From: a virus
Lineage: Duplodnaviria > Heunggongvirae > Uroviricota > Caudoviricetes
Virus record (IMG/VR): IMGVR_UViG_2778261693_000002
Span: 1-11,452 of that record
Strand: one strand, 5' to 3'
DNA length: 11,452 bases
Both the position numbers and the translations under genes were made by a program. The notes beneath the pieces were generated by a model that saw only the letters and a list, made by a program, of their open reading frames with translations, was not told the origin of the DNA and did no database searches. The first letter of the stretch is position 1, and each line of letters opens with the position of its first letter. This document shows, in pieces, positions 1,589-10,566 of this stretch.

Positions 1589-4003
1589 TTAATACAGGTT
1601 TCGCCACTTATCATCTTCCTGCAAACGCTGGTTCCGATAGAAGATACGCAGGCCTGCTCCTGACGGAATACTGCCGCCGCGAAGCAGTAAATCGACCTCT
1701 TTCTCGCTGCCATCAAATCCCCTGGACTTCAGTTCATACACGAGCTGCTGTCGCTGATGATCTGTAATTCGCTGTTTGTAGTCTTTACGCCGTTTCGGTT
1801 TCACAAGGCGTAACCTTGCTGCCAGTTCCCGGCGCTCTTTTTTGCTCATACTGTGCAGGTAATCGTGCAACTCCTTGTCATCCATGCGGGTGATATCCGT
1901 TCTGGTATCTCCATCAGCTGATTTGTCTTTCCCTTGTTGGTACAAATTTTCAGCAAGGGGACAGTTATTGCCACGAGTCCAAGGGGCGCAAGCGCCCTGG
2001 TCGGCTGCCGCCTCCTGAACGTCAACGGCCTTACGAACCATTTTCCACTTCACTGCATGAGTGCAGATCTTGCCCTCTGCAATGGGTGACCAGATGCCAT
2101 AAATACGAATACCGTGATCGCCATAGGCGGTTGGCTCTTCGTTGATTTCATAAGCGGTTCTGATGAGGTGATATTTGCGGGGAACCAGTACGCCGCCCTG
2201 CTTCATGATGTAGGTGGCAAAACAACCAGCATCAGCAGCAGCCAGGATGGCATCAAGGCGCGGGTTATCCAGTACCGACGCACCTGCTTTTTTGTCACCC
2301 TGTTGCCTTGCCGCCTGACCAGCCAGCAATCGCAGTTCACGGTAAGCCTGACGCCCCGGAATGCCAAAGAAGCGGAATTGCTGAACACGATGCAGAGACG
2401 CCCAGGCATTAACGTATTCAGCGTTATCACGCAGGGATTTCCCCGTTTCCTTACTGATCTCGCCAGCCAGACCACGCCCGTCAATATTCTTACTGATATA
2501 TTTCGCAATGTAGCTTGTCGGCGTTCCTTTGCGCGGGTTTATCAGCTCAGACTTAAAGCGTGGCCCCGTGTTATTGCCCAGCTCCTCGCGGTCTTCACGG
2601 ATGGCAAACTTACGCAACAATGCAGTAATGGCGCGGCGGTCTTTTTTGCGCATGAAACACAACAGGTGCCAGTGAACTGTGCCATCATGATGCGGCTCAG
2701 CCACCCGCACGCCATACCAGCGCAACCCGGCTTTGTGCATAGCCTTACGAAATGCAGCAAACATGCCGACCAGATAATCGCTGCTTTGTCTTACTGTCGC
2801 GTTGGTCCAGGTCGGGTTTGGCCTGCCGTTATTTAGCGTGGAATGGAAACGTGACGGACAGGTGATGGTGTAGAAAACGGCGCAGTCACCGCGCATTTCC
2901 GCGATAAGCTCCAGGCCTTTAACACAGGCCATCATCTCGTTGCGGCGATGCGCCGGGTTGCTGCTGCTGGCGTTTACCACATCCTCCATGTTCAGCGTGT
3001 CGCCGTCTTCGTTCACCAGTTCATGAGAACGGAAAAACTCCAGCGACTTACGGCGCTGCTCACGTTTATGCATCACGGCTTCATAGCTGACATAGGGAGA
3101 TGCTTTTTTGCTGACCAGGCAGACAGCACGCAACTGCTCTTCCCGCCATTCGCAACGCATCTTCCATAATTTCCGATACCACCAGTCGGCGCACAGCATA
3201 CGCGCCAGCGAACCCGGAATGCGTTCATAAGGCACAGGTTTGCGGCGGTTTCTTTTCCGGCGGAGTTGCTCAAACGCAGGCGGTATGACATCCAGTCGCA
3301 GGGTTTCTGCAGCCACCTTTTCCCATGTCTTGCGGATTTCTTCTGGCTTAACATCATCGGAGGCGTACAAATCACCACAAGCGGCATCAAGACACATGCT
3401 CATATGCGCAGCGACAAGGGTAGACAGGCGTTTCACCTGATCCTGACTCATTTCAGGCAGGATCAGCAGACCGTCCAGCCCTTCATGGCTTGCCATAAAC
3501 CGAAAAGATGCAGATAGCTGGCTGTCGCGTACATGCTCCAGTCGTTCCAGACATGGCTTAATCGTCTCACGCAAATAGCGGGAATAAGCCTTTGGCCTGC
3601 CCAGGCTGCTGAAGTATTCAATACGTTGCATCAGCGGCTTGCTGATATGGGAAGGCTGGGCGTTGACGTCAGCCAGAATGACCATGTCTGGATTAAAACG
3701 CTGCTGCTCATGCGCCATCTTTGCCCGGCTAATGAGCTTATCCTGCTCCATTTCGCGTTGGACAGGATCACGGGATTCATTAAAGAAATAACGCTCCCAG
3801 ACCTGATCACTTAGTGCCTCGCGGCGCAGTTGTTCCTGCTCGTTATCGGTAGCGTACAAAGTGATCAGGTTTGAAAGCGCAGAAACCGGCGCAACTTCCA
3901 CCGGGTCCAGATAAGGGTTAATGGCCTTTTTCGGGCTGTTCCATGAGAATGCTGCGGCGACCTCGTTAAAGCCGCTGCAGTTGTTCATATCAGCATGGCT
4001 CAT
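1589..4003 (-). CDS. Replication initiation endonuclease, phage P2 gpA family (HUH rolling-circle initiator)
   Basis: 804-aa ORF; HUH motif VHWHLLCF and paired-tyrosine active-site motif YIAKYISK; ATG 4003 overlaps the upstream Dam stop (ATGA); RBS GGAG 8 nt upstream. Confidence 0.9.
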
Positions 4004-4857
4004 GCACGCACTCCGTACACGGCAGAACTATCCACGCCACGCGAAGGATCAAATCCCATCCAACAGCGCGGCCCGGAAACAGCGATGATTTCTGTTGCAG
4101 ATTTACTCTCACCAGCTGCTACACCGATGCTGCGTTTTGCCTTGATGTAGTGGTGAGTAAAATTGCGATACAGCGAACGGATCAGGGATGTATCACTGTT
4201 AGAAACAATGACCGGATGTCCTTCTGATGACCGATGTTCAAGAACGGATGCCAGGTGATACTGGTCATCTTCAGTGAAACCATCAGTGTGATAGCCGGAA
4301 AACGTACCGTCATACGGCGGATCGCAATACACCACATCCCCCACCTGCAGCATCGCCAGCGTTTCATCAAAGCTTGCGCAGATAAACGTTGCACGCTGGG
4401 CCTTTTCTGCAAATGCGCGAATTTCTTTTTCAGGGAAATACGGATTTTTATAATTACCGTAGGGAATGTTGAAATGCCCGCTCTTGTTATAGCGACATAA
4501 ACCACGGTAACCGTGACGATTGAGATACAGGAAATATACCGCTTTCATGAAATCAGTAATTTCAGTTGAGTAATTAAACTCCTGCCTTATGTTGTAATAA
4601 GCCACCTCCCTGTTTGCGATCTCAAATAAAACTCTGGCGCGAGATATAAACGATTCACAATCAGCAGCAACCTTTTTATAGAGGTTGATTAAATCAGGAT
4701 TAATATCCGCAACAAGATAGCTGGGGTAATCCGTCTCCATCATCACAGCACAGGAACCCGCGAAAGGTTCAACCAGTCGCGGGCCAGCAGGAAGATGTTT
4801 TTTCAGTTCGGACATAATGGCAGTTTTATTACCCGCCCATTTCAGGATGGTGCTCAT
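4000..4857 (-). CDS. dam: DNA adenine methyltransferase (Dam-like, N6-adenine, GATC class)
   Basis: 285-aa ORF with KWAGNK, FAGSCAV (AdoMet-binding region) and catalytic DPPY motif ([10 protein letters not shown]); RBS GGAGGTG; start overlaps the stop of the upstream gene (ATGA). Confidence 0.85.
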
Positions 4858-5894: not shown

Positions 5895-6404
5895 TCACAG
5901 CAAACCAAATGAAGCACCGAGGCCAGTCACGGTATCAACTGCACTCGCCATCGCAGGATTAGCCTGTAAACGGGCCTGCAATGAAACAGCCGCCAGCGCC
6001 ATCAGTCGTGTTACAGAGTTAATGCTGCTGATAGCATCACGACGACCGGCGCAGGTTTTTACATCGCCAGACACCGCACCTGCAGCAACACGCCCGATCT
6101 CTGCGGTTGCACTCATGACGTAATGTGGCAGTTTCTCTTTTGCCACCTCATTAATCGGTACACATGGCAGACAATGAATCTGTGCCAGAAAACCATCTAT
6201 CAGCGTTGAGTCTTCTGTCAGATCGGTAAGCAGCCAGATTTCTGGCGCATTGAGCTGATGCGGTTGATCTGGGTTGAGTTTGTTTCGCAGTGTCTGAACA
6301 TTCATTCCTGCACGTTCTGCCAGCTTCGCCATATTGTGACGTAGTGCAAAAGCTCTACAGGCTTCATCAAAATACGGATGTTTGGAAATCTTGTAATCAA
6401 ACAT
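5895..6404 (-). CDS. CII-like transcriptional regulator (HTH), second gene of the lytic operon
   Basis: 169-aa ORF, the same length I recall for phage 186 CII and in the same position (directly after apl); HTH-like segment MAKLAERAGMNVQTLRNKL; RBS GGGGG 4 nt before ATG 6404. Confidence 0.55.
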   Translation of the reverse strand: MFDYKISKHPYFDEACRAFALRHNMAKLAERAGMNVQTLRNKLNPDQPHQLNAPEIWLLTDLTEDSTLIDGFLAQIHCLPCVPINEVAKEKLPHYVMSATAEIGRVAAGAVSGDVKTCAGRRDAISSINSVTRLMALAAVSLQARLQANPAMASAVDTVTGLGASFGLL

Positions 6405-6436
6405 GCTGCCCCCTTAGAAAGTTCCCATAATTGAAC

Positions 6437-6679
6437 TTACTTACCAACAATGACGCGGAAGTTGGAATGTCCGAGGGATTCACGGACCTGATCAGTTTTG
6501 TACATCAGATAACGCAGACTTACGCGGCCTTTGTTTTTTTCTTTCTTGACCATGTACTTAGCAAGTTGACCATGGTGAATTTTTTGGTAAACAGAGCCGC
6601 GGGAAATGCCCTCCCACTCTGCGAACTCTGCAGGTGTTGCCATCTCTTTTGGTACACGAATTGAAATATCAGTACTCAT
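6437..6679 (-). CDS. Apl/Cox-type excisionase and switch regulator
   Basis: 80-aa first gene of the minus-strand operon, convergent-promoter arrangement opposite cI as in 186/P2; HTH-like EFAEWEGISRGSVYQKIHHGQL. Confidence 0.65.
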   Translation of the reverse strand: MSTDISIRVPKEMATPAEFAEWEGISRGSVYQKIHHGQLAKYMVKKEKNKGRVSLRYLMYKTDQVRESLGHSNFRVIVGK

Positions 6680-6758
6680 AGTGCAGTATCTCTTACTTTG
6701 TGTGCGTGTTAGTTCGTTTTAGCCCGTCTCTTAAACTCTCACATCAAGAGACAAGAAA

Positions 6759-6787
6759 ACATTACGATCTTGATTCAAGATTGTCAA
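6759..6787 (-). promoter_or_regulatory. Candidate lytic promoter (pR-like) with palindromic operator in the spacer
   Basis: Minus strand reads TTGACA (revcomp of 6782-6787), 17-nt spacer, TAATGT (revcomp of 6759-6764); the spacer contains the perfect palindrome ATCTTGATTCAAGAT (6767-6781); a further TCAAGAG half-site lies at 6745-6751. Confidence 0.4.
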
Positions 6788-6800
6788 ATGGAGATTACCA

Positions 6801-7433
6801 ATGTTAAACATCAGAATGGGTTCCGATACGGGAGGTAAAGCAGCTATTGAGAGGCTGCTTGCGGCTTATGGATTCACAACTAAGCAGGCATTAAGTGAGC
6901 ACCTGAATGTCTCAAAAAGCACTATGGCAAACAGAGTGTTACGTGACAGCTTTCCTGCTGACTGGATAATTCAGTGCGCACTAGAAACCGGTGTTTCGTT
7001 GCTTTGGTTAGCTACAGGACAGGGAAGCATGAAAGCAGGATCTGAGACTGAAAAAAGATCTCACAATGAGAACAAACAAGCAATTAAACCGTTATCTAAA
7101 CTCATAACTCCATCTATTCCTAAAGGAACCTTGGAGAATGGACAACTCAGTATTGATGAAGAGATTTTCCTAGACCACAGCATATTACCTGCAAATTATG
7201 AAGAATCGATGTTCTTAGAAACCCCTACTGATTGTTATCTCATCGATAAATCAGTTAAACAAGTCAGCAATGGATTCTGGCTTATCAATATTGATGGAAT
7301 GATTATTATTGCAAAAATTATGCGGATTCCCGGCAATAAGATTGTAGTAAATCAAGATGAAGCGTCTTTCGAGTGCTCTGCTGATGATGTGGAAGTTATT
7401 GGGCGTGCAGTCAAAGTAATAAAGAGTATCTAA
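6801..7433 (+). CDS. CI-type immunity repressor (N-terminal HTH, C-terminal domain)
   Basis: 210-aa ORF immediately upstream of and co-transcribed with int (stop 7431-7433, int ATG 7436); HTH-like TTKQALSEHLNVSKSTMANRV; RBS GGAG; divergent from apl across the switch region. Confidence 0.7.
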   Translation: MLNIRMGSDTGGKAAIERLLAAYGFTTKQALSEHLNVSKSTMANRVLRDSFPADWIIQCALETGVSLLWLATGQGSMKAGSETEKRSHNENKQAIKPLSKLITPSIPKGTLENGQLSIDEEIFLDHSILPANYEESMFLETPTDCYLIDKSVKQVSNGFWLINIDGMIIIAKIMRIPGNKIVVNQDEASFECSADDVEVIGRAVKVIKSI

Positions 7434-7435
7434 AC

Positions 7436-8452
7436 ATGACTGTCAGAAAACAGCCAAACGGCAAATGGTTGTGTGAGTGCTATCCCAATGGACGCAATGG
7501 CAAGCGCGTGCGTAAGCAATTTGCTACGAAAGGAGAAGCCATTGCTTTTGAAAGCTTCACAATGGAAGAAGTGAATAAAAAACCGTGGCTAGGTGAAAAG
7601 GATGATCGGCGACGCCTATCAGAATTAATTGAGCTTTGGTATTCCCTGTATGGTCAGACACTCGCAGACCCCAGGCGCCTCATGGCGAAACTTAGAATTA
7701 TCTGTAATGGTCTAGGCGACCCCATCGCCTCAGAACTGACAGCCGGTGACTTTACGAAATACCGCGAAGCACGGTTAAAAGGCGACGTTCGTAACGAAGA
7801 CGGCACACTAATGTCGCCAGTAAAACCACGCACGGTGAATCTTGAGCAACGTAACCTATCATCGGTTTTCGGCACATTGAAAAAACTAGGCCACTGGTCA
7901 GCACCAAATCCTCTCGCCGGGCTGCCAACATTTAAAATCGCTGAGGGGGAACTGGCGTTCCTGACCTCGGAAGAAATTAAACGTCTGCTAGATGCCTGCG
8001 CTGATTCTCAAAACCCCAGTCTGCTTTTGATTGCAAAAATATGCCTGGCCACCGGCGCACGCTGGAGTGAAGCCGAAAACCTGCAGGGCCATCAGTTATC
8101 TAAATACCGCATCACTTATACCAAGACGAAGGGCAAGAAAAACCGCACCGTGCCGATATCTCAAGATCTGTATGACGAACTCCCCAAGAACAGAGGGAAG
8201 CTATTCACTCCGTGCAGAAAAGCCTTTGAACGGGCAGTAAAGCGAGCTGGCATCGAGCTGCCAGAGGGCCAATGCACTCACGTGCTACGTCATACATTCG
8301 CCAGTCATTTTATGATGAATGGCGGAAACATACTGGTGCTACGCGATATTCTGGGCCATGCCGATATAAAAATGACGATGATTTACGCCCACTTTTCGCC
8401 CGATCACCTTGAAGATGCGGTTACTAAAAACCCTTTATGCAACTTAAGATAA
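7436..8452 (+). CDS. int: Tyrosine site-specific integrase (P2/186 type)
   Basis: 338-aa ORF; catalytic-domain signature ARWSE...HVLRHTFASHF...GHADIKMTMIYAHF (R, H-x-x-R, Y); size and position typical of P2-like int. Confidence 0.9.
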   Translation: MTVRKQPNGKWLCECYPNGRNGKRVRKQFATKGEAIAFESFTMEEVNKKPWLGEKDDRRRLSELIELWYSLYGQTLADPRRLMAKLRIICNGLGDPIASELTAGDFTKYREARLKGDVRNEDGTLMSPVKPRTVNLEQRNLSSVFGTLKKLGHWSAPNPLAGLPTFKIAEGELAFLTSEEIKRLLDACADSQNPSLLLIAKICLATGARWSEAENLQGHQLSKYRITYTKTKGKKNRTVPISQDLYDELPKNRGKLFTPCRKAFERAVKRAGIELPEGQCTHVLRHTFASHFMMNGGNILVLRDILGHADIKMTMIYAHFSPDHLEDAVTKNPLCNLR

Positions 8453-8765: not shown

Positions 8766-8797
8766 TCAAGATGATCAATATTTATTGATCATCTTGA
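8766..8797. repeat. Perfect 15-bp inverted repeat (TCAAGATGATCAATA tt TATTGATCATCTTGA) containing two GATC sites
   Basis: Exact reverse-complement arms read directly from the sequence; lies 33-64 nt downstream of the deaminase-fusion stop; no flanking U-tract on either strand. Confidence 0.6.
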
Positions 8798-8829: not shown

Positions 8830-10566
8830 CTACTCAAGAAGATATTCTAACTCATCTTTTATCGGGATAACTTGCTCATAAAGTCGGTGATATGACTTCC
8901 CAATTGCGCCTCTGAATTGTATTAACTTTGGTGGCTTGTTACCTATATTAATAATATGGTCTTGGGCTATACCTGGGTAGGGATCAATAAATACAATTTC
9001 AGATATACCTAACTGATAAGCTTTTTTCGCACACAGCTCACAGGGACTGGCAGTTGTATATAACCTTCCCCCCTGAACGCCAATACCACCATATTTTGCA
9101 AGTTGTAAAAAAGCGTTTTCCTCAGCATGTAATGCACGTGTATGAACTTGATTACCTTTTTTATCTTTATCAAGATCATTATGTATATCTTTAAAACAAT
9201 AAGATAAGTTCCTGCCTCTATAAATATCACCAGTTTTATCTATCGCCCTAAAATTTAAGAGTTTCTCATTAGCCTTAATTCTGAAAGAACTATTATTTCT
9301 CTCATAATGACTGTACACTTTTTCATCAAAGTCGTTCATTAGGCCATCTAGCGATCTCATAGAGCAAGGAATCTGACCGTTGGCAACATCATTCCAACCT
9401 ACTGATTTTATTGAATTGTCACCATCAGTTACTACAGCTCCCACCTGTCTAGATATACAACCAGAGTTTAATTTTACCGTATACGCAACTTGCATAACCC
9501 TTTCCATTGCAGTAGGTGTTATCAGACCAGGATGCTTCATCAGTGCGATGTACCACGCTAATTGTGCTTTTAAAATATTATCATTATCAAATTCATTTTT
9601 TGGGTTAAAAATGTGTATATCTGATAGTTCAATACATTTAGTTACATTTGGATTAGTGAGATGTTTGTAAGAGTTATCACCTTTACCTGACTCTACAGAA
9701 TCTATTTCCTCTATCTGCTTTTCAGAAAACTTATGTAGTTTCCGCAAATAGTTTGTTCGATGTTCATCTGGGGCATTTATTGACATTAAATGAAATGCAG
9801 AATATCTATCCTTAAAAAATTTTGCTTCATATGGATTTCTAATAGCATCTATGACAATTAATGCGTTATCTCTTTTGCTTTTTCTTATTAATTTAATAAC
9901 CCTATTAATAGTTTCCGGCAAATGAAAAACAGATTTAGGTATAAACTCTTTATCTTCAAAATCGACTTCAATACGCCCACGGCGTCTAATTGACTTACCT
10001 GCTAACTGATAGACTGAAACATATAAATTTGAGTTTATCGCATTTAGTTCAGCTTTGAATTCCTTAGTAAATTTTCTAACTAACCTCAAAATTGATATAA
10101 ATTTATTAATCGTTTTTTCATTAAGCTTCAATTCACTATTATGATCAAGCAAATTCTCAATTACATTTTTAAATCTTGTTAAAATTAGATTATCTGAGAA
10201 TACACCAAAAGTTAATACATTATCTAAATGCTCTTTACTGATAGATTTATTAGATGACAGAATGAATTCAGAAGCTTCTTCAACTGTTAACATCAAAAGA
10301 TACGCTGAGATTAGGTCACTCACCTTAATTGAGTAAAAATTTTCCCAGTGATTTTCTGCGAATTTTTTAACTATATTATAACGATGGACATCCAATCCCT
10401 TGTAAAAACCCTGTAATTTACTTACATCAGGGAAGACTGTTTTTTCGTTTTCAAGAATATTAGCTGTTGTTGTGCAACCAGAACCAGTTCGACCTGTCAA
10501 ACCGACTAAAATAAACTGCCCATTTTCAAGGAAAAGCTCACTAACGAATTTTTTTTCTTTCATCAC
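8830..10566 (-). CDS. P-loop-kinase-like + dCMP/cytidine-deaminase fusion protein (AvcD/DCD-like candidate anti-phage deoxynucleotide deaminase)
   Basis: 578-aa ORF in low-GC DNA. N-terminal Walker-A-like VGLTGRTGSGCTT (10468-10503, Lys replaced by Cys). C-terminal deaminase signatures RQVGAVV, zinc ligands HAE (9121-9129) and PCELC (9031-9045). Start is GTG 10566 or ATG 10563. Family assignment from memory, no search. Confidence 0.75.
   Translation of the reverse strand: MMKEKKFVSELFLENGQFILVGLTGRTGSGCTTTANILENEKTVFPDVSKLQGFYKGLDVHRYNIVKKFAENHWENFYSIKVSDLISAYLLMLTVEEASEFILSSNKSISKEHLDNVLTFGVFSDNLILTRFKNVIENLLDHNSELKLNEKTINKFISILRLVRKFTKEFKAELNAINSNLYVSVYQLAGKSIRRRGRIEVDFEDKEFIPKSVFHLPETINRVIKLIRKSKRDNALIVIDAIRNPYEAKFFKDRYSAFHLMSINAPDEHRTNYLRKLHKFSEKQIEEIDSVESGKGDNSYKHLTNPNVTKCIELSDIHIFNPKNEFDNDNILKAQLAWYIALMKHPGLITPTAMERVMQVAYTVKLNSGCISRQVGAVVTDGDNSIKSVGWNDVANGQIPCSMRSLDGLMNDFDEKVYSHYERNNSSFRIKANEKLLNFRAIDKTGDIYRGRNLSYCFKDIHNDLDKDKKGNQVHTRALHAEENAFLQLAKYGGIGVQGGRLYTTASPCELCAKKAYQLGISEIVFIDPYPGIAQDHIINIGNKPPKLIQFRGAIGKSYHRLYEQVIPIKDELEYLLE

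What the first reader, a model, noticed from the sequence alone, without database searches (positions are those of the whole stretch)
6680..6800. Lysis-lysogeny switch: near-consensus promoter with a perfect palindrome in its spacer
Seen: on the minus strand, TTGACA, a 17-nt spacer and TAATGT point toward apl; the spacer is the perfect palindrome ATCTTGATTCAAGAT (6767-6781), with another TCAAGAG copy at 6745-6751. This places a repressor operator over the lytic promoter directly upstream of cI. Inference: TCAAGA-type half-sites are the CI (or Apl) operators of this phage.
Basis: partly seen in the sequence, partly recalled or inferred. Interest (0 to 1): 0.45.

Follow-up and report, generated by a model that had tools for sequence, protein, structure and literature searches.

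The report
Lytic promoter with repressor operator
This is the early lytic promoter of a 186-like E. coli prophage, with a palindrome between its two promoter elements that most likely binds the phage's own CI repressor; it is an ordinary but previously undescribed example of a well-known phage switch.

Summary
On the minus strand, TTGACA (6787..6782), a 17-nt spacer and TAATGT (6764..6759) point at apl. The spacer holds the perfect 7-1-7 palindrome ATCTTGA-T-TCAAGAT (6767-6781). Two corrections: the extra TCAAGAG copy lies at 6744-6750, one base off, and the -10 matches only 3/6, so the promoter scores 9/12.

The window is a 186-like prophage, 96% identical here to RE2010 and Cartapus, with int-cI facing apl-cII. 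In the annotated 186 record, pR has the same layout: a -35 about 14 nt from the cI ATG, a 17-nt spacer, and a palindromic CI site filling that spacer.

Across 88 related loci, all but two show a TTGAC[AG]-like -35, a 17-nt spacer and a TAnnnT -10. The spacer sequence follows the CI N-terminal domain, not Apl. The window's Apl allele occurs with five CI types and five different spacers. The window's CI type occurs with four Apl alleles and essentially one palindrome. One relative changed the same half-site position in both arms.

So this is the pR homologue carrying the main CI operator of an uncharacterised immunity group, and Apl is rejected as the binder. CI binding and transcription start sites remain untested. 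A second dyad (6726-6752) and a conserved 186-FR-like site (6419-6438) are probably part of the switch. This is a new member of a known kind, of modest interest.

The parts
6782..6787 (-). pR -35 hexamer TTGACA
   Evidence: Read directly. It lies 13 nt from the cI ATG, against 14 nt for the annotated 186 pR -35. It is invariant in the 13 aligned distinct group-A intergenic sequences. TTGAC[AG] (TTGAAG in one locus) is found in six of the eight CI types.
6759..6764 (-). pR -10 hexamer TAATGT (3/6 to consensus, with T1, A2 and T6 present)
   Evidence: Read directly. It sits exactly 17 nt from the -35. TAnnnT is found at this position in the same six CI types and is invariant in group A. The tool's scan did not call it because it matches only 3/6.
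6767..6781 (.). O1: perfect palindrome ATCTTGA-T-TCAAGAT in the pR spacer; inferred primary CI operator
   Evidence: It occupies the same place as the annotated palindromic CI site ATCTCTCAATTGGGAGAT in the 186 pR spacer. Its sequence tracks the CI N-terminal domain and not Apl. L044 carries a symmetric double change at half-site position 5, with L030 as the one-sided intermediate. Within group A, only the symmetric positions 4/12, 5/11 and the centre vary.
6744..6750 (-). Third half-site copy (minus strand CTCTTGA; plus strand TCAAGAG); possible weak auxiliary CI contact
   Evidence: 6/7 match to ATCTTGA. Its start is 31 nt downstream of the O1 left half-site start, about three helical turns. 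It is conserved in all group-A loci. No recognisable partner half-site is present (3/7). Its role is inferred only.
6726..6752 (.). O2: dyad GTCTCTT-N13-AAGAGAC at about +1 to +27 of the predicted pR transcript; auxiliary CI site or 5' RNA stem-loop (unresolved)
   Evidence: Among group-A loci one arm position (6730) varies in one variant, against five variable loop positions. The Klebsiella group has a dyad with the same centre but unrelated arms, CCAACTTC/GAAGTTGG. As minus-strand RNA it folds at -10.9 kcal/mol, z = -2.7. Comparable hairpins exist in some CI types but not in others or in 186.
6661..6689 (+). Predicted pL (lysogenic promoter for cI-int): TTGAAA (6661-6666), 17 nt, CAGTAT (6684-6689), facing pR
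   Evidence: Positional homology with annotated 186 pL. There the -10 CATGAT lies 4 nt from the apl start codon and the -35 lies inside apl. The spacing from the apl ATG is the same here, and this block is conserved across all CI types. The predicted start sites are about 56 bp apart, against 62 bp in 186 (distance recalled from the literature, not retrieved here). No start-site data exist.
6801..7433 (+). cI repressor gene (210 aa)
   Evidence: Pfam Phage_CI_repr (E=5.7e-30) and Phage_CI_C (E=1.7e-30). It matches 186 CI structures 2FJR (E=2.8e-26) and 2FKD (E=1.7e-12).
6437..6679 (-). apl (Cox/Apl-like excisionase and regulator, 80 aa), first gene downstream of pR
   Evidence: 30% identity to 186 Apl, E=4e-13. 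Relatives annotate it as an excisionase or Cox-like gene.
6419..6438 (.). FR-like palindrome AAGTTC-N8-GAACTT at the apl stop codon, enclosing CATAAT (6426-6431, candidate pE -10); candidate distal CI site of a second type
   Evidence: It occupies the same position as the annotated 186 CI site FR (ATTCACTTTATGTGAAT, starting at the apl stop). It is conserved in all heteroimmune groups. The 16-mer RTTCAATWWTGRGAAC has only two hits at 2 or fewer mismatches in the whole Cartapus genome: here and upstream of the ogr/B gene. Expectation is 0.2, and 0 of 60 shuffles reach 2. It lies 345 bp from O1.
6378..6404 (.). CII binding site ATGTTTG-N13-CAAACAT at the cII start (pE activation)
   Evidence: It has the same half-sites, spacing and position as the annotated CII binding site of 186. 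cII is Pfam Phage_CP76, E=8.9e-43.

Best explanation
The element is the pR-type early lytic promoter of a 186-like temperate phage, and the 15-bp palindrome in its spacer is the main operator of the phage's CI repressor.

Proposed mechanism in a lysogen:
- CI is a two-domain protein whose C-terminal domain is homologous to the one that builds the 14-mer wheel of 186 CI. Its helix-turn-helix dimers bind the two ATCTTGA half-sites.
- The site fills the space between the -35 and -10, so bound CI excludes RNA polymerase and shuts off apl-cII-replication transcription.
- pR fires head-on into the weaker pL (predicted TTGAAA-17-CAGTAT, 6661-6689). Silencing pR therefore also relieves interference and lets pL make cI and int.
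- Weaker contacts probably add cooperativity: a half-site at 6744-6750, the dyad at 6726-6752, and a distal FR-like site at 6419-6438.

What is shown: the sequence features, the homology of the genes, positional identity with the annotated 186 pR/CI site, and co-variation of the spacer with the CI DNA-binding domain.

What is inferred: actual CI binding, start sites, the oligomeric state, and the role of the auxiliary sites.
For: 1. Gene context. cI has both 186-CI domains and matches 2FJR and 2FKD. An Apl homologue, cII and int are present in the 186 order.

2. The 186 GenBank record annotates pR with -35 TTTACT, a 17-nt spacer and -10 TATATT, with the -35 lying 14 nt from the cI ATG. It also annotates a CI binding region over pR that is the locus of vir mutations. 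The spacer there is the near-palindrome ATCTCTCAATTGGGAGAT. The window has the same geometry (13 nt, 17 nt) with a palindrome starting at the same first spacer base.

3. Among 88 related loci, six of the eight CI N-terminal-domain clusters show a TTGAC[AG]-like -35, 17 nt, then TAnnnT. Each cluster has its own spacer. One other cluster (L046) has a perfect 7-1-7 palindrome, ATCACTTTAAGTGAT, at the same spacer positions 1-15.

4. Discrimination between CI and Apl. The window's Apl allele (at least 90% identity) is found with five CI clusters and five different spacers. The window's CI cluster is found with four Apl alleles, and 32 of 35 loci carry the identical palindrome.

5. Symmetric evolution. 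Half-site position 5 is T/A in most loci, changed on one side in L030, and changed on both sides (C/G) in L044. All variation inside the palindrome in group A falls at the mirror positions 4/12 and 5/11 and at the centre.

6. The chance of such a palindrome in 121 bp is about 1.6%.

7. In the same-immunity prophage Cartapus, the CI gene is expressed in the lysogen (PMC9928086).
Against: - There is no binding, footprint or start-site data for this immunity group. No such study turned up in the library.
- Only one full palindrome is present. 186 has three pR operators two helical turns apart (PMC3675496). No recognisable sites lie 21 bp either side of O1. The only extra copy is a lone half-site 30-31 bp away.
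- Two CI types (Fels-2 and the L081 group) show no clear dyad in the spacer, so 'palindrome in the spacer' is not universal in the family.
- The recognition helix SKSTMANRxLR is almost identical in heteroimmune CIs, so what reads the group-specific bases is unexplained.
- The palindrome is no more conserved within group A than the rest of the intergenic region (5 of 15 positions vary against 25 of 121), although the variants come from only 3 of 35 loci.
- The -10 is weak (3/6).
Confidence: 0.85

Rival explanations
1. The palindrome is the operator of Apl, the Cox-like excisionase and regulator, which would shut down pR from within its spacer.
For: In 186 the annotated Apl binding region begins just after the pR -10 and represses pR and pL (PMC7498355).
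Against: Phages with an Apl at least 90% identical to the window's (100% in most) carry five unrelated spacer sequences, each matching a different CI type. Phages with the window's CI type but Apl only 67-71% identical keep the same palindrome. Apl-type proteins bind direct repeats one helical turn apart, not a single inverted repeat (PMC7498355).
Confidence: 0.03
2. The promoter is real, but the palindrome is not the functional operator. CI would act through other sequences, such as the 6726-6752 dyad or an FR/pB-type site. The palindrome would be a by-product of conserved promoter backbone (ATC after the -35, GATCG before the -10).
For: - The outer ATC...GATCG frame is shared by five heteroimmune groups, so part of the symmetry is inherited backbone.
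- Plus strand 6773-6788, ATTCAAGATTGTCAAA, matches the pB/FR-type motif at 12/16 (my own reading).
- Two CI types lack a spacer dyad.
- The palindrome is not more conserved than its flanks within group A.
Against: - The inner bases that complete the perfect symmetry are exactly the ones that differ between CI types.
- L044 changed the same position in both arms.
- A second CI type has an independent perfect palindrome at the same place.
- The homologous 186 spacer lies in the region annotated as CI sites and as the locus of vir mutations.
Confidence: 0.07
3. The palindrome acts at the RNA level. Transcribed from pL, it would form a hairpin in the cI leader about 10 nt upstream of the cI Shine-Dalgarno sequence and tune cI translation or stability.
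For: Plus-strand RNA 6762-6786 folds at -8.1 kcal/mol, z = -3.6, with 0 of 200 shuffles folding as well. It lies between predicted pL and the cI ribosome-binding site (GGAG, 6790-6793).
Against: Any perfect palindrome folds like this. Other CI types have weak or no dyads here. L014 and L030 break pairs without compensation. No Rfam family matches. This reading does not exclude operator function and could at most be a secondary effect.
Confidence: 0.05

Closest known systems
Coliphage 186 pR promoter and its CI operators (pR/pL convergent switch; Eganvirus ev186)
   Same: - The gene order is the same: int-cI facing apl-cII.
- CI has the same two domains.
- The pR -35 lies 13-14 nt from the cI ATG, the spacer is 17 nt, and a dyad-symmetric element begins with ATCT at the first spacer base.
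- pL faces pR, with its -10 lying 4 nt from the apl ATG.
- The CII site ATGTTTG-N13-CAAACAT is identical.
- A palindrome at the apl stop codon sits where 186 has FR.
   Different: - The operator sequence and length differ: 15 bp ATCTTGAATCAAGAT here against 18 bp ATCTCTCAATTGGGAGAT in 186.
- Only one full palindrome is present, rather than three operators two turns apart.
- No FL-like site was found in cI.
- CI is only about 30% identical and has a longer interdomain linker.
- The FR-like site has 6-bp arms with an 8-bp gap instead of 6+5+6.
- A Dam GATC abuts the operator; none is seen at that position in the 186 pR spacer.
- Nothing here has been tested experimentally.
Fels-2 / SopEPhi / SEN8 / RE2010 / Cartapus group of P2-like prophages (Felsduovirus, Elveevirus)
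   Same: The window is 96% identical to RE2010 and Cartapus across cII-apl-cI-int and carries the same palindrome. All share the promoter backbone, Apl, CII and the FR-like site.
   Different: Fels-2, SEN8/SopEPhi and the Klebsiella phages have CI N-terminal domains only 61-72% identical and different spacers, so they are presumably different immunity classes. PMC3448106 notes that CI immunity classes in this group have not been studied in detail. None of these records annotates a promoter or operator here.
Phage P2 Pe/Pc switch with C repressor
   Same: It has face-to-face early and lysogenic promoters, with an immunity repressor acting at the early promoter and a Cox-type protein encoded by the first early gene (PMC3448106, PMC1904263).
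   Different: P2 C is a small unrelated repressor that binds two direct repeats, not a palindrome. P2 has no cII and no 186-type CI (PMC1904268 abstract; PMC3448106).

Membership tests
186-type CI / pR-pL lysis-lysogeny switch | Immunity repressor with the 186-CI N-terminal helix-turn-helix domain and the 186-CI C-terminal oligomerisation domain | tested here: met
   Pfam PF07022 (E=5.7e-30) and PF16452 (E=1.7e-30). It matches 2FJR at E=2.8e-26 and 2FKD at E=1.7e-12.
186-type CI / pR-pL lysis-lysogeny switch | Gene order int-cI divergent from apl-cII, with a short intergenic switch region | tested here: met
   int is at 7436-8452 (+), cI at 6801-7433 (+), apl at 6437-6679 (-) and cII at 5895-6404 (-). 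The intergenic region is 121 bp, against 129 bp in 186.
186-type CI / pR-pL lysis-lysogeny switch | Sigma-70 lytic promoter pR next to cI, reading toward apl | tested here: met
   This is sequence-level evidence only. TTGACA-17-TAATGT sits at the position of annotated 186 pR. The hexamers and spacing are found in six of the eight CI types. The start site has not been measured.
186-type CI / pR-pL lysis-lysogeny switch | Dyad-symmetric CI operator overlapping pR, specific to the immunity type | tested here: met
   A perfect 7-1-7 palindrome fills the spacer. It co-varies with the CI N-terminal domain and not with Apl. A symmetric double substitution is seen in L044. Physical binding is not testable with these tools.
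186-type CI / pR-pL lysis-lysogeny switch | Three adjacent pR operators spaced two helical turns apart (PMC3675496) | tested here: not met
   No second palindrome copy exists within 3 mismatches. Nothing recognisable lies 21 bp either side of O1. The only extra copy is a 6/7 half-site about 30-31 bp away. The flanking 186 sites are themselves not obviously palindromic, so weak sites could be missed.
186-type CI / pR-pL lysis-lysogeny switch | Convergent (face-to-face) lysogenic promoter pL about 40-60 bp from pR | tested here: inconclusive
   TTGAAA-17-CAGTAT (6661-6689, +) has the same offset from the apl ATG as annotated 186 pL and lies in a block conserved in all CI types. The hexamers are weak and there is no start-site data.
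186-type CI / pR-pL lysis-lysogeny switch | Distal CI sites (FL, FR) about 300 bp either side of pR, of a second sequence type also found at pB | tested here: inconclusive
   An FR-like palindrome lies at 6419-6438, at the apl stop, 345 bp from O1. The same 16-mer occurs upstream of ogr/B in Cartapus and nowhere else in that genome at 2 or fewer mismatches. No FL-like copy was found in cI. Binding is untested.
186-type CI / pR-pL lysis-lysogeny switch | Apl direct repeats at 10-11 bp spacing between pR and pL | tested here: inconclusive
   TAAAAC-like repeats at about 10-bp spacing are visible in several relatives. In the window they appear at about 6721-6696 on the minus strand (reading). A pattern scan of Cartapus did not pick out a clear array.
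186-type CI / pR-pL lysis-lysogeny switch | CII-activated establishment promoter pE, with inverted 7-mers two turns apart at the start of cII | tested here: met
   ATGTTTG-N13-CAAACAT at 6378-6404 is identical in half-sites and spacing to the annotated 186 CII site.

The most novel reading that the evidence does not exclude
Heteroimmune 186-like repressors of the Fels-2/RE2010 group share an almost invariant recognition helix and a common second-type site, RTTCAATWWTGRGAAC, at pE/FR and pB. Immunity specificity would then reside only in the inner bases of the dyad in the pR spacer, read by residues outside the recognition helix such as the N-terminal arm or helix 2.

If so, a resident prophage's CI would still bind pB and pE of heteroimmune relatives, giving partial cross-repression between 'heteroimmune' phages. 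The conserved Dam GATC abutting the operator could couple pR or CI binding to methylation state.
Probability: 0.15. Interest if true: 0.5.

Novelty: new member of a known kind. Interest (0 to 1): 0.25.

Why it matters
It defines the likely immunity determinant (operator plus promoter) of a widespread E. coli and Salmonella prophage type. A match to this region is found in 238 of 5426 complete E. coli genomes, 61 of them over at least 80% of its length, though these matches span several immunity types. This type includes RE2010/ELPhiS and the LF82 prophage Cartapus.

That is useful for predicting superinfection immunity among Fels-2-like prophages and for building orthogonal 186-type repressor/operator pairs. 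It is also useful for testing how 186-type CI proteins with near-identical recognition helices tell operators apart. It does not change the understanding of the switch: the architecture is that of phage 186.

Tried and rejected
- Apl as the binder: rejected by the CI/Apl cross-tabulation.
- Additional full copies of the palindrome as FL/FR-type sites: none within 3 mismatches in the window or in the whole Cartapus genome.
- 186-style operators 21 bp either side of O1: nothing recognisable.
- The tool's own promoter hit on the minus strand (TTAACA-16-GACAAT, 6807..6780): rejected as the main promoter because it is not conserved in relatives.
- A mini-ORF (GTG AGA GTT TAA) in the centre of the 6726-6752 dyad: rejected because the reading frame is not conserved among relatives (reading).
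- ATCAATATTGAT (7284-7295, inside cI) as an FL-like site: it is invariant in 18 cI alleles, but the invariant run of 18-19 nt is not exceptional for this gene and the sequence encodes I-N-I-D. Left as a weak lead.
- Apl direct-repeat arrays: a pattern scan did not resolve them.
- Known RNA families: no Rfam match in 6300-7000 at E up to 1.
- Literature on operators of Fels-2/RE2010/Cartapus-type CI: none found.

Full report
**What is in the sequence.** On the minus strand the region reads CAT(cI start)-TGGTAATCTCCAT-TTGACA-ATCTTGAATCAAGATCG-TAATGT-TTTCTTGTCTCTTGATGTGAGAGTTTAAGAGAC...ATG(apl).
- The -35 TTGACA is at 6787..6782 and the -10 TAATGT at 6764..6759, separated by 17 nt.
- The first 15 spacer bases (6767-6781) form a perfect palindrome with 7-bp arms and one central base. 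The repeat finder reports an extended form of it.
- 'Near-consensus' needs qualifying. The -35 and the spacing are consensus, but the -10 matches only 3/6, so the tool's scan did not call the promoter.
- Such a palindrome is not remarkable over 11.4 kb (3 seen, 1.7 expected). In a 121-bp intergenic stretch its chance is about 1.6%.

**Context.** The window is a 186-like P2-family prophage.
- The ORF at 6801-7433 carries both domains of 186 CI and matches the 186 CI crystal structures.
- The ORF at 6437-6679 is an Apl homologue.
- cII, int, a Dam methylase and the replication gene A surround them.
- The cII-apl-cI-int stretch (window 6300-7500) is 96% identical to Salmonella phage RE2010 and Escherichia phage Cartapus. 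It is 99.9% identical to prophages in several E. coli chromosomes.

**Comparison with phage 186.** The 186 GenBank record is richly annotated.
- Its pR has -35 TTTACT lying 14 nt from the cI ATG, a 17-nt spacer and -10 TATATT.
- The CI binding region, which is the locus of vir mutations, covers this promoter. The spacer itself is the near-palindrome ATCTCTCAATTGGGAGAT.
- The window has the same geometry (13 nt, 17 nt), with its palindrome starting at the same first base of the spacer.
- 186 pL has its -10 lying 4 nt from the apl ATG on the opposite strand and its -35 inside apl. The same offsets here give TTGAAA (6661-6666), 17 nt, CAGTAT (6684-6689).
- The 186 CII site, ATGTTTG-N13-CAAACAT, is present unchanged at 6378-6404.

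**Relatives.** I collected 80 viral contigs encoding CI relatives and several annotated phages.
- They fall into eight clusters of CI N-terminal domain. Six show a TTGAC[AG]-like -35 (TTGAAG in one locus), exactly 17 nt, then TAnnnT. The other two are one-locus clusters, one not scored by my script and one with no match to the promoter pattern. Each cluster has its own spacer.
- One other cluster (L046) has an independent perfect 7-1-7 palindrome, ATCACTTTAAGTGAT, at the same spacer positions.
- Two clusters (Fels-2 itself and the L081 group) have no clear spacer dyad.

**CI or Apl.** The cross-tabulation is decisive at the level of inference.
- The window's Apl allele is 100% identical in most cases. 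It occurs with five CI clusters and five unrelated spacers.
- The window's CI cluster occurs with four Apl alleles, some only 67-71% identical. It carries ATCTTGAATCAAGATCG in 32 of 35 loci and close variants in the other three.
- The spacer element therefore belongs to CI.
- Apl-type proteins also bind direct repeats one turn apart, not a lone inverted repeat (PMC7498355).

**Variation within the window's immunity group**.
- The hexamers are invariant.
- Inside the palindrome, only the mirror positions 4/12 and 5/11 and the centre vary.
- Position 5 is T/A in most loci, changed on one arm in L030, and changed on both arms (C/G) in L044, whose CI N-terminal domain is 89% identical.
- This is the pattern expected of a dyad read by a symmetric dimer.
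- The palindrome as a whole is not more conserved than the rest of the intergenic region, which is a mild caution.

**Most likely mechanism.** CI binds the palindrome between the -35 and -10 and excludes RNA polymerase from pR. As in 186 (PMC3675496), silencing pR should relieve convergent interference on pL and so sustain cI-int transcription. The CI C-terminal domain is homologous to the 186 wheel-forming domain, so cooperative, multi-site binding is plausible but unshown.

**Other probable parts of the switch.**
- *A second dyad, GTCTCTT-N13-AAGAGAC (6726-6752).* It starts at about +1 of the pR transcript.
  - One arm position varies, in one group-A variant, against five in the loop. The Klebsiella group has unrelated arms around the same centre.
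  - It folds as a 5' hairpin of -10.9 kcal/mol.
  - Comparable hairpins are present in some CI types only.
  - I cannot decide between an auxiliary CI site and an RNA stem-loop.
- *A palindrome at the apl stop codon, AAGTTC-N8-GAACTT (6419-6438).* It sits exactly where 186 has the CI site FR.
  - It encloses a candidate pE -10 (CATAAT).
  - Its 16-mer recurs upstream of the late activator gene ogr/B in Cartapus. These are the only two hits at 2 or fewer mismatches in that genome, against 0.2 expected.
  - 186 has CI sites at those same two places.
  - Unlike the pR palindrome, this motif is conserved across heteroimmune phages. That fits the near-invariant recognition helix SKSTMANRxLR.
  - It also raises an unanswered question: what reads the immunity-specific bases?

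**What does not fit 186.** There are not three recognisable pR operators at two-turn spacing, and no FL-like site turned up in cI.

**Novelty.** No promoter or operator is annotated here in the RE2010, Fels-2 or Cartapus records. No paper in the library describes operators for this CI group. PMC3448106 notes that CI immunity classes have been little studied. The finding is therefore a correct call of a new member of a well-understood kind. Interest is modest. The only less ordinary threads are the dual site types, the invariant recognition helix, and the unresolved second dyad.

Noticed in passing
window 6378-6404: ATGTTTG-N13-CAAACAT overlaps the cII start codon. It is identical in half-sites and spacing to the annotated CII binding site of phage 186, so it is the likely CII activation site of the establishment promoter pE.
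   Followed up: partly
window 6419-6438; L093 (Cartapus) 22503-22518 and 26814-26829: A palindrome at the apl stop codon is positionally homologous to the 186 CI site FR. Its 16-mer RTTCAATWWTGRGAAC recurs only upstream of ogr/B in the Cartapus genome. It is conserved across heteroimmune CI types, unlike the pR palindrome, and is a candidate second-type CI operator.
   Followed up: partly
window 6726-6752: A 27-bp dyad, GTCTCTT-N13-AAGAGAC, sits at the predicted 5' end of the pR transcript. The Klebsiella relatives have a dyad with the same centre but entirely different arms, around a shared core GTGAGAGTTT. It is either an RNA 5' stem-loop or an auxiliary protein site.
   Followed up: partly
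window 6766-6769: A Dam site, GATC, lies between the palindrome and the -10. It is kept at the same spacer position in five of the CI types, though lost in SopEPhi. The window's phage also encodes a Dam methylase (4000-4857), but SEN8 keeps the GATC without a dam gene at that position.
   Followed up: no
CI residues 38-48 (window about 6912-6944) and alignment A1: The predicted recognition helix SKSTMANRxLRDSFPA is identical in heteroimmune CIs except for one residue (V, M, Y or N). Four types with Y have quite different pR spacers. Specificity must come at least partly from elsewhere in the N-terminal domain.
   Followed up: no
window 8766-8797: A perfect inverted repeat with 15-bp arms, TCAAGATGATCAATA-TT-TATTGATCATCTTGA, lies just downstream of the 8830-10566 gene. 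Its outer ends are the same heptamer as the pR half-site, in everted order. It is probably a terminator-like hairpin, and the resemblance may be chance.
   Followed up: no
window 8830-10566 (minus strand): A 578-aa protein with a cytidine/dCMP deaminase domain is annotated in an identical E. coli prophage as an anti-phage dCTP deaminase. It sits as cargo between int and the chromosomal ypjA region. RE2010 and Cartapus carry different cargo at this position.
   Followed up: partly
window 7284-7295: A perfect 12-bp palindrome, ATCAATATTGAT, lies inside cI (codons I-N-I-D). It is invariant in 18 cI alleles and resembles the TCAATATTGA core at pB of relatives. It lies 515 bp from the pR palindrome and is weak as an FL-like candidate.
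   Followed up: partly
window 6773-6788 (plus strand): ATTCAAGATTGTCAAA overlaps half of the palindrome and the pR -35. It matches the pB/FR-type motif ATTCAATATTGAGAAC at 12 of 16 positions. In both pR and pB the -35 is followed by ATnTTGAAT. The meaning is unclear.
   Followed up: no
L079 (IMG/VR contig) pR region: In this more distant CI type, the pR -10 is flanked by GAGAAC-N14-GTTCTC, and the spacer contains TTATGAGAAC, identical to part of the FR-like motif. The operator in the pR spacer of that type therefore looks like the second site type.
   Followed up: no
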